From positions 73,416 through 137,415 of the IMG/VR virus record IMGVR_UViG_3300036715_002050: a stretch of 64,000 nt of DNA. One strand, given 5' to 3'. The notes below the pieces were generated by a model. That model worked only from the letters and a program-made list of their open reading frames with translations, was not told the origin of the DNA and made no database searches. Every line of letters begins with the position of its first letter. Within the stretch, counting starts at the first letter, position 1. Origin of the DNA: a virus. The position numbers and the translations under genes are program-made. Positions 2,247-26,902 of the stretch are shown here, in pieces.

Positions 2247-2389
2247 TCGCGTGTGGTGTAAAAAGTGGACGCACAAGAAAGTAGCCCAAAGCATTCCGGA
2301 CAATACTTTTGGTGTACTCTTGTGTCGAAATGAGAAAGCACACTAGCTTGCGGAGCTAGAGGATGTAGGTTCGAATCCTGCCACGCGGA
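2247..2389 (+). tRNA. tRNA (anticodon GCG, Pro-like body) with ~65-nt hairpin inserted in the D loop
   Basis: Acceptor TCGCGTG/CACGCGG, D stem GTGT/GCAC split by GCACAAGA...TCTTGTGT hairpin, CTAGC-TTGCGGA-GCTAG, T arm GTAGG-TTCGAAT-CCTGC. Confidence 0.75.
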
Positions 2390-2602
2390 TTTATTTAAAG
2401 GTTAACCAGCCATTATCGTGATGGTGCGGTTAATAGGAAGTAGCTCAAAGCGGGGATTGCCAACAATCCCGTTGTGGTATACGATAACCCACACTTCCTA
2501 GTGCTTATTGTTGGGCTTAATCTTGGAAAAAAAAAACCGCTTGGCAAGGGTCCGCCGTCATCCAAGACCGTGGAGTTGCCCAATTTACGGCTAAGCACGC
2601 AT

Positions 2603-2673
2603 GAGTCGTTGGCCGAATGGTTAGGCACAGGATTGCAACCCCTGCTAAGTCAGTTCGATTCTGACACGACTCT
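2603..2673 (+). tRNA. tRNA-Cys(GCA)
   Basis: Acceptor GAGTCGT/ACGACTC, U73, loop TTGCAAC. Confidence 0.9.
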
Positions 2674-2678
2674 TTTGT

Positions 2679-2840
2679 GGTGTGCATGGTCTAACGGTTA
2701 AGACTACGTAGGCGTGGAGAGATCGTATTACGGTAAGACACCCGTGAAGCCGGTCAGGGCGCGCGGGGAATAAAGGTTCAACCCCTTTTCTCTCCTCCAG
2801 AAACCTCCGTAATGTTTGGGTTCGATTCCCACTGCACACC
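2679..2840 (+). ncRNA. Outer tRNA-like RNA interrupted in its anticodon loop by a complete inner tRNA-like RNA (2716-2799)
   Basis: Outer: GGTGTGCA/TGCACACC, D GTCT/AGAC, ACGTAGG/CCTCCGT, T loop TTCGATT. Inner: GGAGAGA/TCTCTCC-T-CCA with T arm AAAGG-TTCAACC-CCTTT. Confidence 0.75.
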
Positions 2841-2847
2841 TTTTTAT

Positions 2848-22641: not shown

Positions 22642-23061
22642 ATGCCCCACGTGCAAAAAGAAATCGTCCCCGGTACGCCCGTACGTGTGTACCGCAACTT
22701 GCACCAGCGTTGTTGGTCGGTGCAAACGTATGTGCGCGGTAAGGGGTGGCGGTTGGCTCGCCACGAATCCGCCCTGTTCATCACCGACGTGACTTACCAC
22801 GTCAACGAACGCATCCGTCAACAGGTCATCGCTAACCGCCACAAAGACATCCACGCTTTTGTGTGCGGCAAGTGGTTGACGGGCGGATCGGGCAATAGCT
22901 TGGATGCATTGGTGGGCCATGCGCGCACGGGACCACGCAACGTGACTTACAACCCCTACAAAGCCGGGCACTTTATGTTTGATGATGGTCCCGCTACGCC
23001 GTTGGCTTGCGCTTGGTTCGCCAACTTGGTTATCGGTTACACAACGTTTGACTTGACGTAA
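22642..23061 (+). CDS. Conserved phage hypothetical protein (YRNLH..CWSV family)
   Basis: VRVYRNLH..CWSV...K.IHAFV.G...VTYNPYK..HF. Confidence 0.7.
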   Translation: MPHVQKEIVPGTPVRVYRNLHQRCWSVQTYVRGKGWRLARHESALFITDVTYHVNERIRQQVIANRHKDIHAFVCGKWLTGGSGNSLDALVGHARTGPRNVTYNPYKAGHFMFDDGPATPLACAWFANLVIGYTTFDLT

Positions 23062-24882
23062 GGAGCTTAACAATGGGTGTCATCGAAGCTTTGTGGACGA
23101 AAGAAGTGACCCGCCGTTTGCGGGAATTTCCCGGCGAGAACGTGATTGATCCCACCCACTACCACAAGACGGTGGATATCACGTTCGGGGCAATCTTTCT
23201 GCATGACTCCGCCATCCGTACGTTGGTTACGGTGGTTTGTGGCTCCGGGTTTACCGTGTCCACAGACGACACCGGAGCCATGGGTAAGCTGAAACTACGC
23301 ATCGAAAACATCGCTCTGCCACCCGAGTCCTACATGCCTTCCGTGTCCGAGCAAGCTTTTGCCATCCTGCACGAGACGTGCGGGGCGCTGGTGGCAGAGC
23401 GCCAAATGATGAACAGCAACACGATGCGGGTGTACTTCAAGGAGAAGTTGTCCATCGACTTGCTGGGCGGCCTCGCAGACAAGTTGGGCAGTCCACGGAG
23501 CTTGGTGGATATCTGCCCCACCAACGAAGCTGGTCCGTGTGTGTACTTCAACCGAATCAATCCCGGCAGCTAACGCAAACCGGCTACACGTGGGGTAAAA
23601 GCCCGCGTAGTCTTCGTCGTACCATTAACAAAGGAGCCCCAAAATGTCTGCACGTAATCCCAATCCCTTTACCGTAGAAAAACCAACCGACATTCCTGAT
23701 GGCGCATATGTCATCATGCGTCCAGAAACCTATTCCACAGATGGCGGTTATCCTGAAGATAGGTGTCATTCTTACGGCTATTGCGGCATCACGGTTTACC
23801 CGGACAAGACTTCGTGGGAAGCCGCTTTGAAGCGAGACGTAGAAAGCAAGCGGGATCCGGTAGGGTTTGTGATGCGTCGAGCGACGACCAGCATCACAGT
23901 GACCGTAAGGGTCGACGTATCGGTTTGATGTTACTCTAACCAAGGACACACACATGGCACGGACTTTGCAGCAAGCTTTGACCGCTTTTGCGGTGGACAA
24001 CCCGGTGTACGGAGTCCGGTCGTACATCGGGCGGGGAATGGGTAGCCGGGAATGCGTTGGGCTGGACACCGACGACGTCATCGGCGCTATCGGTGAGTTC
24101 GGCGCGTGGCTGATTGACACGCAAGTCGACAACGCAGCGGACATCATGCGGCAAGTGGCGGAGGCCCGCTCGGCCTCCATGGGGCTGGGCTACATCTTGT
24201 ACTGGCCGCGCGTCGAGTGGGTGGTGCCGGTGCAACCCGTGCCTTCAGGCTGTGACAATCCGGACTGTACGGGATGCAACTGCGGGGAACCGCAGAGCGT
24301 CCCCATGCCCTCCATGATCCCGGGGCACAGTTGCGGTGACTGTGAAGACGGGTCTTGCGGCATCGGGCGTTGGTGAGACTTGACTGAACCACAGGAACGC
24401 GCTACAGTGCTTGGCGTGGCTGTAGCGCGTTCCTGCGGCTTGGTGTGGTCTTCCCCCACAACAGGAGCTAGCATGCGTTTGACGGCGTTGGAGACGGCGA
24501 TTACGGCGGTTTGGCAGGGTCGTGGCGGTGGGATGGTCCGTATCAAAGGTATCAAGGGTATCAAGCGTTAGCCTCGTACCGCACAAGTAGTCCACTCTTA
24601 CCCAGGAATACCACCATGACGGTAGGCAAGCACCAAAGCGAAGTAGAGTCCGCGTTGTCCTTGGACCACATGCAAACATATGATCTGTTGGCGACCCGAC
24701 GCGACCAGTGGTTGATGCTGGCAAAAGACACGGTCACGTTTTCGCCAGAAAACGCCCACGCCTGCGTCACCAACGCCAACGTGTTGTCCATGATCATGGA
24801 CGAGTTGCAGGACCGTTGGGATGCAGACAAGATGGACCGCACACACGTCGCAAAGTAACACCCACGCACAAAGGAAAACAAC

Positions 24883-25293
24883 ATGTCCCGAGTTTACAAG
24901 AATGACGCCGACCGTGAACTGGCCGTAGCACTCCGCAAGGCCAAGAAGTTGCTGTTGACGCCAGGCAAGTGGTCCAAGGGCGCGTTGGCCCGAAACGCCG
25001 AGGGCGAGCCGCTCAATGGTGTGGCGGGGATCCGTGGTGACAATGCCGCTTCATTTTGCGCCGTTGGCGCAGTGATTCGTTGTGGTGGCAAACGTTCGAT
25101 GAACATCTTGGACGCGGCGGTGTTCTCATACACACGCAACAACGAAAACTACGCGTCTCCTACCGACGACATCATGGCGTTCAACGACGGCATGATCTCG
25201 TCACCCGAAGAACTCATGCCGGTGTTTGACATCGCGCTGGATCTGTTGCGCGCAAAGCCCACCAGCCGATCTTCCACCAAGTCCACCAAGTAA
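24883..25293 (+). CDS. DUF6197-like family paralogue 6
   Basis: AKKLL..PGKW.KGA.ARN..G...A.SFCAVGA..R...FND.....EE...VFD.AL. Confidence 0.75.
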   Translation: MSRVYKNDADRELAVALRKAKKLLLTPGKWSKGALARNAEGEPLNGVAGIRGDNAASFCAVGAVIRCGGKRSMNILDAAVFSYTRNNENYASPTDDIMAFNDGMISSPEELMPVFDIALDLLRAKPTSRSSTKSTK

Positions 25294-26788
25294 GCCCGTT
25301 GTACCACGTAACACCACACAAAGGAGCACCATGAACACCAAAGGTAACCAAGGTAAGGCGAATCGTCAGTCCGATGCCGTACGCAAAGCCCGTCGTGCAG
25401 CCAACAAGGCCCGCCGCTTGCAGAAGATGTGGGACGACCGCCTCGAAACCCAGCGCATCTTGGCGGGCAACTACACGTACGAAGAGTTCCTGCAGCGCAT
25501 GGGTAAGTGACATGGGGCGCTCTAATCAAGCGCCCACCGACGACAACCGCGCTTGGGCTATTGGATTGTGGATTGCCATGACCTTAGCGATGGTTGCGTT
25601 TGTGTTTGGTTACTTTGTTGGCGAATCTCGTGGTACTTTGCGCACCATCGAGCACTTTTCGATGTGTGACTGTAATTCTTTGACGGACGGTGGCTAGTGG
25701 ACATGATTTTTGCGGGGCTAGAAACGCTTATCAAAGCTTTCGTAGCTTTGTTGGTGTTGTCCATGATCAGTCTGTTCGTGGCTGTTTATTTTGCCACCAA
25801 GTTTTACAACGAAGCGCACCCTAACCGCGACGTGATCGTAGAATGCACGTTGCACGCAGACGGCGGCATCGATTGCCGCCACAAGTAACAGGAGGATACA
25901 ATGGAAGAACTGGATGCGGGCGTAGATGCCGGTACACTTTACACCACCGAGCAACAAACAGCAGACGCGGAACAGTCACACCACGACCGCGTAGTCGTGT
26001 CCGAAGCAGCGATGTTCGTGCTCGTGGTGTTCGTGCTGGTTGCGTTGGCGGACAGCTTGACCCGGAAGAAGCCATGACCGCTTTTGTAGGGTTGGCGTTT
26101 TTGACTCTGTGCACTGGGCTGTTGTTGCTCGGCGCTCTGTTTGATGACGGTGACGATTAACCAAGTAATCTTGTAAGAATGTCCAACAATCAACTAAAAC
26201 AGAACCCTAACTATCCGCTATACGTGATCGTGTATGCGCAATCTGCACCCAATCCCGGCTTCTATGTGGTGGTTAATTTGCAAACATTGTTGCCGTCACC
26301 TACACAAGAAATCAATGCAGCGACACAGTGGCGCACCCAAGGGGATGCAGTAGCTTACTTGGCACTTAATCAAGTAGCTATTGGTGCAGCAGAAATCCGT
26401 CCGACTTACCACGTGCCCGCTTACTACTCTTCAATCTTGCCCCAATTGGGGCCCGAATAATCCGGAGCCAAATGACCATGCGACCCTATGGTACCAACGC
26501 TAACGATCCCCACAAACCTTGGCACGGTATAGATGTATGGCGTCAACGTCATAACCAAACGTATCGAGCTATCCGCCACCACGAACGTGTGCGAGCACGA
26601 CAAGCGGGAAAAGCCGAAACGGATTGGTGGTTTGATATCGATATGGTAGCTGAAACAATCTACGAACTGGAAGAAGAAGCTGTACAATACCGCGATGACG
26701 TGTTGCGTTATGAAGCACGGGCGGCAGGGCTGCTTGACTCGTTGGCCGACCCGTGGTAGGCTGCTGTTCGTGGTCGCAGTCGTAGCGC

Positions 26789-26902
26789 CGCGCGATAGTG
26801 TTCGGGGAGACATAAGGTGTGCGCACACTGGAGTCATCTTTACCCCTCAATGGTAGCACACTCCCGGGAGGGAGTAGAATGGGTTCGATTCCCTTTCGCG
26901 GC
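26789..26902 (+). ncRNA. tRNA-like RNA with D-loop hairpin insert and GNRA tetraloop replacing the anticodon loop
   Basis: GCGCGA/TCGCG, TA-GTGT...CAATGGTA-GCAC split by GGGG...CCCC hairpin, ACTCCC-GGGA-GGGAGT, T loop TTCGATT. Confidence 0.6.

What the first reader, a model, noticed from the sequence alone, without database searches (positions are those of the whole stretch)
2247..26902. Recurrent hairpin insertions in the D loop of three tRNA-like RNAs
Seen: at 2247-2389 (~65-nt hairpin, intact GCG anticodon arm), 2848-2936 (12-nt hairpin) and 26789-26902 (~45-nt hairpin, anticodon loop reduced to a GGGA tetraloop), a self-complementary insert sits just after the 5' D-stem strand. Known: D-loop introns occur in archaea, but bacterial tRNA introns are normally group I/II at the anticodon. 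Inference: these are either a non-canonical intron class spliced with phage ligases or appended protein-binding domains. The 2247 tRNA also pairs a Pro-like body with an Arg(GCG) anticodon.
Basis: partly seen in the sequence, partly recalled or inferred. Interest (0 to 1): 0.75.

Follow-up and report, generated by a model that had tools for sequence, protein, structure and literature searches.

The report
Phage tRNA look-alikes with expanded D-loops
An uncultured phage carries three tRNA-shaped genes with extra structured RNA in the D-loop; many other uncultured phages have similar genes, so the extra RNA is more likely a kept arm than an intron or debris, though its job is unknown.

Summary
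The three loci are real tRNA-derived genes with oversized D-loops: 78 nt (E1, 2247-2389), 25 nt (E2, 2848-2936) and 54 nt (E3, 26787-26903). They lie in a 137-kb uncultured phage with about 45 tRNA genes.

Only E1's insert folds better than shuffles (3% of shuffles do as well). E1 also has a second reading, a complete D arm followed by a 69-nt insert.

E1 keeps a decoding arm with anticodon GCG. Its T arm matches the phage's own Arg tRNAs, so the "Pro-like body" claim is not supported. E2 and E3 cannot decode: E2's anticodon loop lacks U33 and its T arm is one base short, and E3 has a GGGA tetraloop.

I found no BHB motif, no splicing endonuclease gene and no ribozyme or intron family.

Two pattern scans of IMG/VR gave 74 distinct tRNA-like genes with D-loop inserts, some decoding-type and some tetraloop-capped. 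One family shows compensatory changes in the D-loop hairpin. The same scan of cellular genomes gave almost only archaeal D-loop inserts.

Best reading (0.5): a kept expansion arm on tRNA-derived stable RNAs. These resemble phage T5's "tRNA-like stable RNAs", but the expansion sits at a different site. Function is unknown.

This scan found similar objects before on other phage DNA.

The parts
2247..2389 (+). E1: tRNA-Arg(GCG)-like gene, 143 nt. Acceptor 2247-2253/2382-2388, D stem 2256-2259/2338-2341, 78-nt D loop 2260-2337, anticodon arm 2343-2359 (anticodon 2350-2352), T arm 2365-2381, discriminator A at 2389.
   Evidence: Sequence. Pair lists and constrained fold, -41.6 against a free MFE of -42.3 kcal/mol. 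ARAGORN with introns calls tRNA-Arg(gcg) at 2246-2390. Rfam tRNA scores 32.1 bits on 2318-2389 only.
2270..2327 (+). E1 insert hairpin, 58 nt and irregular. It lies after the GG of the D loop, in the beta region.
   Evidence: MFE -15.6 kcal/mol, z -2.25, 3% of 500 shuffles as good. No other copy in the genome.
2848..2936 (+). E2: non-decoding tRNA-shaped gene, 89 nt. Acceptor 2848-2854/2926-2932, D stem 2857-2860/2886-2889, 25-nt D loop with a 4-bp hairpin at 2866-2877 followed by AAAUGGUA, anticodon arm 2890-2906 (loop lacks U33), short T arm 2910-2925, encoded ACCA 2933-2936.
   Evidence: Sequence. Cloverleaf-constrained fold -24.5 against MFE -24.6 kcal/mol, with pair list. No Rfam hit at E<=10. 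Not called by ARAGORN.
2938..2976 (+). Intrinsic terminator (13-bp stem plus T tract) directly after E2. It closes the tRNA operon.
   Evidence: Terminator scan.
26787..26903 (+). E3: non-decoding tRNA-shaped gene, 117 nt. Acceptor 26787-26792/26897-26902 (6 bp, then C.U), D stem 26798-26801/26856-26859, 54-nt D loop 26802-26855 ending AAUGGUA, anticodon stem 26861-26865/26870-26874 capped by GGGA (26866-26869), T arm 26879-26895.
   Evidence: Sequence. Pair list and constrained fold. Model R1 hits exactly 26787-26903 at 20.5 bits, E 0.0035. Rfam gives only 19.2 bits with the tRNA-Sec model. tRNA-Thr and tRNA-Ile follow at 26915 and 26998.
52032..52985 (+). Context only: Rnl2-type RNA ligase gene, the only RNA-repair or splicing-type enzyme found in the record.
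   Evidence: Pfam PF09414, E 5.7e-14. phrog_548 RNA ligase, E 1.3e-20.

Best explanation
E1, E2 and E3 are tRNA-derived genes whose D loop carries an extra structured segment. That segment most likely stays in the mature RNA as an expansion arm and is not spliced out.

All three keep the parts that RNase P, RNase Z and the CCA enzyme are known to read: the acceptor/T-arm helix, and a GG in the D loop that can dock on the T loop. They should therefore be cut out of the tRNA-operon transcripts as discrete small RNAs.

E1 still has a complete anticodon arm (GCG, Arg) and an Arg-type T arm. It may be chargeable, or even decode. E2 and E3 cannot decode and are tRNA look-alikes, of the kind long known as 'tRNA-like stable RNAs' in phage T5.

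The extra arm would project from the elbow region. There it could serve as a handle for a partner, or block proteins that read the tRNA elbow.

Shown: the anatomy, presence in four DNA runs, recurrence of the architecture in many other phage contigs with covariation, and absence of splicing signals.

Inferred: retention in the mature RNA, processing by RNase P and RNase Z, and any function.
For: 1. Anatomy:
- The cloverleaf helices are intact around the inserts.
- E3's anticodon stem is 5 perfect pairs closed by a GNRA-type GGGA loop, which points to selection on RNA structure rather than decay.
- E2 and E3 keep AAUGGUA at the 3' end of the D loop, and E1 keeps GG before its hairpin.

2. Recurrence:
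- Of the first 80 loci, 57 were true D-loop inserts and 23 were a 5'-fragment followed by a full tRNA. Nearly all inserts fold as a hairpin before the GG.
- A second pattern for inserts after the GG gave 64 stretches. In the 50 loci examined there were 11 such inserts, 15 inserts before the GG and 24 duplicates.
- Over 166 held loci, 103 carry an insert-type gene, giving 74 distinct genes. Twenty have a canonical 5-bp/7-nt/U33 anticodon arm like E1, 12 have a tetraloop-capped short arm like E3 (one of them doubtful), and 42 are other.

3. Covariation in one family (12 sequences):
- 93% of cells are paired, against 36-48% when partners are slid.
- 3 of the 6 D-loop-hairpin pairs have changes on both sides.
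- 0 of 500 shuffles reach the covariation score.
- In the E3-like family, 5 of 6 D loops fold into two tandem hairpins with different stem sequences.

Five inserts are in records titled archaeal, one is labelled Pirellulales, one is an Actinomycetes MAG with a tetraloop arm, and one is probably a duplicate.

5. No splicing machinery or signals were found.

6. E2 sits as the last gene before a strong terminator, and E3 heads a small tRNA cluster.
Against: - No RNA data exist, and no close relative of this phage was found. Retention, processing and stability are therefore untested for E1-E3 themselves.
- The inserts of E2 and E3 are no more stable than shuffled sequence. Whole-element z-scores are -1.54, -0.17 and -0.14.
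- E3 lacks the usual A after its D stem and has an imperfect acceptor. E2 has a defective T arm. Both features also fit decay.
- The IMG/VR families are analogues, not homologues. Model R1, built from the E3-like family, scores ordinary tRNAs of the window higher than E3.
- A 58-nt arm on E1 may not fit the ribosome. This is inference.
Confidence: 0.5

Rival explanations
1. Decaying tRNA pseudogenes. The extra D-loop sequence is neutral junk picked up by slippage or small insertions in redundant genes of a very large tRNA set, and the RNAs have no function.
For: - E2 and E3 inserts fold no better than shuffles.
- E3 has a C.U acceptor mismatch, and E2's T arm is one base short with no U33 in the anticodon loop.
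- Rfam does not recognise E2 at all and barely recognises E3.
- E1 is redundant with tRNA-Arg(ACG) in the same genome.
- No homologues are available to show conservation.
Against: - Every cloverleaf helix is kept despite the inserts, including a perfect 5-bp stem with a GNRA-type loop in E3.
- The GG of the D loop is kept in all three.
- Phage genomes are compact.
- Analogous genes are conserved with covariation in many other phages.
- Four DNA runs show no variation inside E1 or E2.
Confidence: 0.2
2. True introns. The inserts are removed by an unknown endonuclease, phage or host, and the halves are joined by the phage RNA ligase to give ordinary-sized tRNAs.
For: - The phage encodes an Rnl2-type RNA ligase.
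- Removing 2270-2337 from E1 would leave a 10-nt canonical-looking D loop and a complete tRNA-Arg(GCG).
- In two IMG/VR families, removing the hairpin leaves a 9-10-nt D loop.
- D-loop introns exist in archaea and in a red alga (search listings and abstracts of PMC3241643 and PMC9602550; listing only for PMC3695527).
Against: - No BHB motif would restore a tRNA.
- No EndA in 5 phage records, no RtcB here and no AAA_33 kinase.
- No self-splicing or self-cleaving family.
- E2 and E3 would still be non-decoding after removal.
- The hairpins of the IMG/VR families are only 5-7 bp, too short for RNase III. This limit is recalled knowledge.
- The settings look bacterial: a tmRNA gene in one insert-bearing locus and an endolysin with a peptidoglycan-binding domain beside another.
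Confidence: 0.12
3. E1 only: a recombination scar. A stray 5' tRNA fragment (2247-2273) lies upstream of a separate, weak tRNA (2318-2389), as in the many 'fragment plus tRNA' arrangements seen in the scans.
For: - Rfam aligns a full-length tRNA to 2318-2389 at 32.1 bits.
- 2318-2324 resembles the 2247-2253 strand (8 of the first 10 bases match, by eye).
- Fragment-plus-tRNA arrangements are common: 23 of 80 viral and 72 of 80 cellular matches.
- ARAGORN finds a complete D arm in the upstream piece.
Against: - The downstream-only reading has a U.C mismatch in the acceptor and, by eye, no D stem.
- The full-length reading has 7/7 acceptor and 4/4 D-stem pairs, and is within 0.7 kcal/mol of the free MFE.
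Confidence: 0.08

Closest known systems
Phage T5 RNA1, annotated in AY543070.1 as 'tRNA-like stable RNA with unknown functions'. The T4 species 1 and 2 RNAs are recalled, not checked.
   Same: It is encoded inside a phage tRNA cluster. It has a tRNA-type acceptor and T arm around a non-tRNA middle, is non-decoding, and its function is unknown.
   Different: By my reading of the T5 RNA1 sequence, its D arm is ordinary and the extra sequence replaces the anticodon and variable region. In E1-E3 the extra sequence is in the D loop, and E1 keeps a normal anticodon arm. No sequence homology was tested.
Non-canonical BHB introns in the D loop or D arm of archaeal and Cyanidioschyzon merolae tRNA genes
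   Same: Both are intervening sequences between the two D-stem strands of a tRNA gene. My cellular scan found such inserts in records titled archaeal. Papers seen as search listings and abstracts only: PMC3241643 and PMC9602550. PMC3695527 was seen in a listing only.
   Different: Those introns depend on a bulge-helix-bulge motif and the EndA endonuclease. Neither is found here. The setting here looks bacterial, with an intrinsic terminator in the window, and removal would not give decoding tRNAs for E2 and E3.
Class II tRNAs (Leu, Ser, Tyr) with a long variable arm (recalled knowledge)
   Same: They carry an extra helical arm, kept in the mature tRNA, at a loop of naturally variable length.
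   Different: Their arm is in the variable loop, not the D loop. It is universal and serves as a synthetase identity element. No such role is known for a D-loop arm.
tRNA-like modules of tmRNA and of bacterial Y RNAs (YrlA). The YrlA lead came from earlier finding e1-4091206.
   Same: They are non-decoding RNAs that imitate the acceptor/T-arm/elbow part of tRNA.
   Different: The topology differs. In those RNAs the large extra domain replaces the anticodon side or sits at the RNA ends. ARAGORN calls no tmRNA here. The only Rfam YrlA match is a 17.5-bit chance-level hit spanning two ordinary tRNAs.

Membership tests
Canonical tRNA (Rfam RF00005) | Whole gene scores at or above the curated cut-off (29 bits) | tested here: not met
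   E1: only its 3' 72 nt (2318-2389) reach 32.1 bits. E2: no match at E<=10. E3: 19.2 bits with the tRNA-Sec model only.
Canonical tRNA (Rfam RF00005) | D loop of ordinary length (about 7-11 nt; range recalled) | tested here: not met
   The D loops are 78, 25 and 54 nt.
Canonical tRNA (Rfam RF00005) | E1: 5-bp anticodon stem and 7-nt loop with U33 and a purine at 37 | tested here: met
   Stem 2343-2347/2355-2359 has 5/5 pairs. The loop is UUGCGGA with anticodon GCG.
Canonical tRNA (Rfam RF00005) | E2 and E3: 7-nt anticodon loop with U33 | tested here: not met
   The E2 loop CGCGCGA has G at position 33. The E3 loop is the 4-nt GGGA.
Archaeal-type BHB tRNA intron | Bulge-helix-bulge motif (3-nt bulges either side of a 4-bp helix) at both splice sites | tested here: not met
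   A loose script scan gave 4, 1 and 3 chance-level arrangements in E1, E2 and E3. Their outer or inner helices were only 2-4 bp, and I judged that none would restore a tRNA on removal. No positive control was run.
Archaeal-type BHB tRNA intron | A tRNA splicing endonuclease (PF01974) is available | tested here: not met
   0 of 5 phage records matched (G000 and 4 relatives). The control rang in 4 archaea. The host genome is unknown, so it could not be tested.
Group I / group II self-splicing intron | Match to a catalytic-core family, with a size of hundreds of nt | tested here: not met
   No such Rfam family at gathering score in the window, or at E<=10 in 1-4000 and 26000-28500. The inserts are 12-70 nt.
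Phage tRNA-like stable RNAs (T5 RNA1 type) | Encoded in a phage tRNA cluster, with a tRNA acceptor and T arm around a non-tRNA middle | tested here: met
   E1 and E2 lie in the array that ends at the 2938 terminator. E3 lies next to tRNA-Thr and tRNA-Ile. T5 RNA1 was inspected.
Phage tRNA-like stable RNAs (T5 RNA1 type) | Accumulates as a discrete stable RNA in infected cells | not testable with these tools
   No RNA run holds the stretch.
Phage tRNA-like stable RNAs (T5 RNA1 type) | Same site of expansion as T5 RNA1 | tested here: not met
   By my reading of its sequence, T5 RNA1 has an ordinary D arm and is expanded in the anticodon and variable region. E1-E3 are expanded in the D loop.
D-loop-expanded phage tRNA-like genes (IMG/VR set assembled here) | Insert between the D-stem strands with the D-loop GG kept, and a canonical T arm and acceptor | tested here: met
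   E2 and E3 have the insert before AAUGGUA, like the 57 of 80 loci. E1 has the insert after GG, like the 11 genes. Both anticodon-arm flavours occur in the set: 20 canonical and 12 tetraloop-capped among 74.
D-loop-expanded phage tRNA-like genes (IMG/VR set assembled here) | Insert structure supported by covariation among homologues | not testable with these tools
   This is shown for one IMG/VR family. No homologues of E1-E3 were found, and contigs from the 4 DNA runs showed no differences inside E1 or E2.

The most novel reading that the evidence does not exclude
Phages have evolved a further structural class of tRNA and tRNA-like RNA, with the extra arm in the D loop rather than the variable loop. 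Members with a normal anticodon arm (E1 here, 20 of the 74 IMG/VR genes) would be working tRNAs whose D-loop arm is a handle or a shield. It might protect against host tRNA-directed nucleases, or give a phage enzyme a private substrate. Tetraloop-capped members (E3 here, about 11 of 74) would be non-decoding decoys or processing modules built on the same scaffold.
Probability: 0.3. Interest if true: 0.8.

Novelty: new variant of a known kind. Interest (0 to 1): 0.6.

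Why it matters
Phage tRNA clusters have held unexplained 'tRNA-like stable RNAs' since the T4 and T5 era (recalled). This window, together with the IMG/VR survey, shows a recurrent and structurally conserved variant: the D loop carries an extra arm, with or without a working anticodon.

Standard finders miss these genes. ARAGORN at default settings called none of the three, and Rfam called only part of one. They are therefore probably under-counted.

If the arm is kept in the mature RNA, it marks a permissive site for building on the tRNA scaffold. 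It would also point to an unknown partner in the phage-host conflict over tRNAs.

If instead the arm is removed, that would be a protein-dependent tRNA splicing route in bacteria, which would be more surprising still. A single small-RNA sequencing experiment can separate the two outcomes.

Tried and rejected
Close relatives for covariation in E1-E3 themselves. None of these gave a close relative:
- megablast and blastn against 50,697 phage records: no match.
- IMG/VR protein-anchored scans: no relative for ORF 3002-3574, 7 loci at 34-45% identity for ORF 857-1399, and 1 locus at 43% for ORF 30907-31932, in a record with no tRNA at all.
- The 5.8-billion-protein search: best non-self hit 54% identity.

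RNA evidence: no RNA holder was listed for window:1-6000. The 4 DNA runs laid on 1-4000 are contigs, nearly identical to the window. They showed no insert-less variant and no difference inside E1 or E2.

Repeat-family idea: the inserts have no other copy in the genome.

E1/E3 paralogy idea: their halves are no more alike than either is to other tRNAs.

Model R1, built from 6 E3-like IMG/VR genes, finds E3 at full length (20.5 bits). It scores ordinary tRNAs higher, so it is not discriminating. The MAFFT alignment of that family mis-registers the D-loop hairpins, so RNAalifold's D-loop pairs there were not used.

Cultured phages: representatives of three IMG/VR families had no insert-bearing match in the phage collection. 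One family's 3' part matched tRNA-Phe of 3 Bacillus phage records.

T4 Rnl1 family search: no match, but its control rang nowhere, so this is uninformative.

Literature: six full-text searches returned nothing on D-loop inserts in phage tRNA genes. I saw only listings and abstracts and read no paper in full. Supplements were closed and were not consulted.

Gene neighbours of two IMG/VR families (endolysin, structural proteins, a shared 84-aa ORF) gave no functional clue.

Full report
Setting. The window is the last 64 kb of a 137,415-base linear IMG/VR virus record, estimated 85% complete. ARAGORN at default settings finds 15 tRNAs in the window. The Rfam tRNA model finds 35 matches at E<=1 in the whole record. 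With relaxed settings, the array at genome positions 69.5-76.3 kb plus scattered genes gives about 45 tRNA genes. A strong intrinsic terminator (13-bp stem plus T tract) closes the array at 2938-2966, which points to a bacterial host. None of the three loci is called by default ARAGORN.

E1 (2247-2389). The sequence gives:
- a 7/7 acceptor stem;
- a 4-bp D stem, 2256-2259 with 2338-2341;
- a perfect anticodon arm with loop UUGCGGA (anticodon GCG);
- a 5-nt variable loop, a canonical T arm and discriminator A.

Seventy-eight nt lie between the D-stem strands. They run: 10 nt ending in GGA, an irregular 58-nt hairpin (2270-2327), then 10 more nt.

If only the acceptor, anticodon and T helices are forced, the best fold adopts exactly this D stem and hairpin. 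It scores -41.6 kcal/mol against a free MFE of -42.3.

Two other readings exist. ARAGORN with introns allowed pairs 2256-2259 with 2269-2272, giving a complete 9-nt-loop D arm, and places a 69-nt insert before the anticodon stem. That fold scores -39.3 kcal/mol. Rfam aligns a whole tRNA to 2318-2389 at 32.1 bits. That reading has a U.C mismatch in the acceptor and, by eye, no D stem.

The hairpin alone has z -2.25, with 3% of shuffles as good.

E2 (2848-2936). It has:
- a 7-bp acceptor (one G.U) followed by ACCA;
- a 4-bp D stem and a 25-nt D loop;
- in that loop, a 4-bp hairpin with a UCUG loop, followed by AAAUGGUA;
- a 5-bp anticodon stem whose 7-nt loop has G, not U, at position 33;
- a T arm one base short that still contains UCGAA.

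The cloverleaf is as stable as the free MFE (-24.5 against -24.6 kcal/mol). Neither the whole element (z -0.17) nor the D loop (z -0.76) stands out from shuffles. Rfam reports nothing at E<=10. Its tRNA ancestry rests on the combination of helices and motifs, and on its position as the last gene before the terminator.

E3 (26787-26903). It has:
- six acceptor pairs, then a C.U mismatch;
- a D stem, 26798-26801 with 26856-26859;
- a 54-nt D loop ending AAUGGUA;
- a perfect 5-bp stem capped by GGGA where the anticodon loop should be;
- a 4-nt variable loop and a T arm with a canonical loop.

The D-loop insert is no more stable than shuffles (z +0.48). tRNA-Thr and tRNA-Ile follow within 12 and 95 nt.

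Is the DNA real? Four public DNA runs from four studies hold the stretch. Their contigs cover E1 (2048-2851, 2257-2407, 2306-2557) and E2 (2801-2951) with no differences inside the elements. One of these runs may be the source sample. No contig lacks an insert.

Intron tests.
- No Rfam ribozyme or intron family matches near the loci.
- A loose BHB scan found only chance-level arrangements.
- PF01974 (the splicing endonuclease) is absent from this record and four related phage records, while the control rang in four archaea.
- RtcB is absent here, and no AAA_33-type kinase was found.
- One Rnl2-type RNA ligase is present.
- Excising just the hairpins would leave D loops of 20 nt (E1) and 13 nt (E2). 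E2 and E3 would still lack a usable anticodon loop.

The record is only 85% complete and the host is unknown. A host-encoded or missing enzyme therefore cannot be excluded.

Identity of E1. Its 3' half aligns best to the phage's tRNA-Arg(ACG) (score 34, against Pro(UGG) 32 and Arg(UCU) 32). E1 also shares 16-nt exact matches with the T-arm regions of both Arg tRNAs. The body is at least as Arg-like as Pro-like.

Comparative evidence. No close relative of this phage exists in the collections searched, so the elements themselves cannot be tested for covariation.

Distant relatives that share ORF 857-1399 are jumbo phages. Their tRNA sets include full-model tRNA hits of 109-126 nt. One is a gene with a 46-nt structured D-loop insert and a degenerate anticodon loop. 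Another is a tRNA-Lys(UUU) with a 38-nt hairpin inside the anticodon.

I then scanned IMG/VR for the commonest D arm with 18-48 extra nt before the GG.
- In the first 80 loci, 57 are true inserts (43 distinct D loops) and 23 are a 5' tRNA fragment followed by a full tRNA.
- Nearly every insert folds as a hairpin starting 3-8 nt into the D loop.

A second pattern, for inserts after the GG as in E1, matched 64 stretches. In the 50 loci examined there were 11 such genes, 15 of the first type and 24 duplicates.

Over all 166 loci held, 103 carry an insert-type gene, and 74 of the genes are distinct:
- 20 have a canonical 5-bp/7-nt/U33 anticodon arm, as in E1;
- 12 have a short tetraloop-capped arm, as in E3 (one of these is doubtful);
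- 42 have other loops of 6-10 nt.

Conservation of the inserts.
- In one family of 12 distinct sequences, the cloverleaf plus D-loop hairpin has 93% of cells paired, against 36-48% for slid controls.
- Three of the six D-loop-hairpin pairs show changes on both sides.
- No shuffle out of 500 reaches the covariation score.
- Three further members of that family carry a longer, unrelated 7-bp hairpin at the same site.
- I derived the structure from these sequences, which favours it.
- In the E3-like family, 5 of 6 D loops fold on their own into two tandem hairpins whose stems differ in sequence.

Rfam assigns these genes to no family other than tRNA, and gives the E3-like ones no match at all.

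Some insert-bearing genes sit in tRNA arrays that also hold a normal tRNA of the same anticodon. Others are solitary. One locus also encodes a tmRNA. One family lies beside an endolysin with a peptidoglycan-binding domain. These are therefore bacteriophages.

Of 80 matches examined, 72 were fragment-plus-tRNA arrangements and 8 were inserts. Five of those are in records titled archaeal, where D-loop introns are known. One is labelled Pirellulales, one is an Actinomycetes MAG with a tetraloop arm, and one is probably a duplicate. Both scans are truncated samples using a single D-stem sequence. Within that limit, D-loop inserts in a bacterial setting look virus-specific.

Known comparators. A lead from earlier findings of this scan pointed to the phage T5 'tRNA-like stable RNAs'. 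The T5 record annotates RNA1 (144 nt) in exactly those words, inside its tRNA cluster. By my reading of its sequence, RNA1 has a normal Leu-type D arm and is expanded where the anticodon and variable arms should be. It is the same kind of object, expanded at a different site.

Six literature searches found D-loop introns only in archaea and a red alga, and nothing on phages. I saw listings and abstracts only.

Earlier follow-ups of this scan describe similar D-loop-insert, anticodon-less tRNA look-alikes in other phage genomes. I did not re-test those.

Verdict.

The most likely reading (0.5) is that these are tRNA-derived stable RNAs with a kept D-loop expansion arm: one possibly still an Arg tRNA, two non-decoding.

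Rivals:
- neutral decay (0.2);
- protein-dependent splicing (0.12);
- for E1, a recombination scar (0.08).

Function is unknown. My proposals are a handle or shield at the tRNA elbow and, for E2 and E3, RNase P/Z-processed modules. Both are inferences.

The finding is a new variant of a known but unexplained kind.

Noticed in passing
window 2679-2841: A tRNA-shaped gene with an 8-bp acceptor and normal D and T arms. Its anticodon loop holds a second, complete tRNA-like RNA (2716-2795 plus UCCA) with its own 7-bp acceptor and T arm. ARAGORN with introns reads the outer gene as Phe(GAA) with an 86-nt insert.
   Followed up: partly
window 2174-2245: A plausible tRNA-Asp(GUC), the only Asp tRNA seen in the record. 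Default ARAGORN misses it, and Rfam lists it only under the tRNA-Sec model (31.7 bits).
   Followed up: partly
window 2434-2500; also 563-646, 11651-11719, 15454-15575, 20641-20711, 56964-57035 (-): Further tRNA-shaped RNAs between genes. The one at 2434-2500 has a 7-bp acceptor and a 7-bp 'anticodon' stem capped by CCAA. The one at 563-646 has a 13-nt D loop and an encoded UCCA. The others keep an acceptor and a T arm around non-tRNA middles.
   Followed up: partly
window 1973-2047: A 53-bp segment flanked by perfect 11-bp inverted repeats, just upstream of tRNA-His. It appears in the opposite orientation in contigs of two DNA runs and in the window's orientation in a third. It may be an invertible DNA switch.
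   Followed up: partly
window 857-1481: ORF 857-1399 (phrog_14850, function unknown) sits directly before an amber-suppressor tRNA(CUA). Homologues in other large phages often have a tRNA(CUA) nearby, and some are fused to a PTH2 peptidyl-tRNA hydrolase domain (PF01981).
   Followed up: partly
window 41970-44222 and 45172-47685: Two AAA ATPase genes, each interrupted by an intein with Hint and homing-endonuclease domains.
   Followed up: no
L031-L150, L271-L316 (IMG/VR loci): Two large families of mostly solitary phage tRNA-like genes. Each has a 5-7-bp tetraloop hairpin in the D loop and unusual 6-8-nt 'anticodon' loops containing GAA. One family derives from tRNA-Phe and lies near lysis and structural genes.
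   Followed up: partly
L011 99-208; L024 (- strand) 1004-1128: In related jumbo phages: a tRNA-Lys(UUU) gene split inside the anticodon by a 38-nt hairpin, and a 125-nt tRNA-shaped gene that contains a second internal T arm.
   Followed up: no
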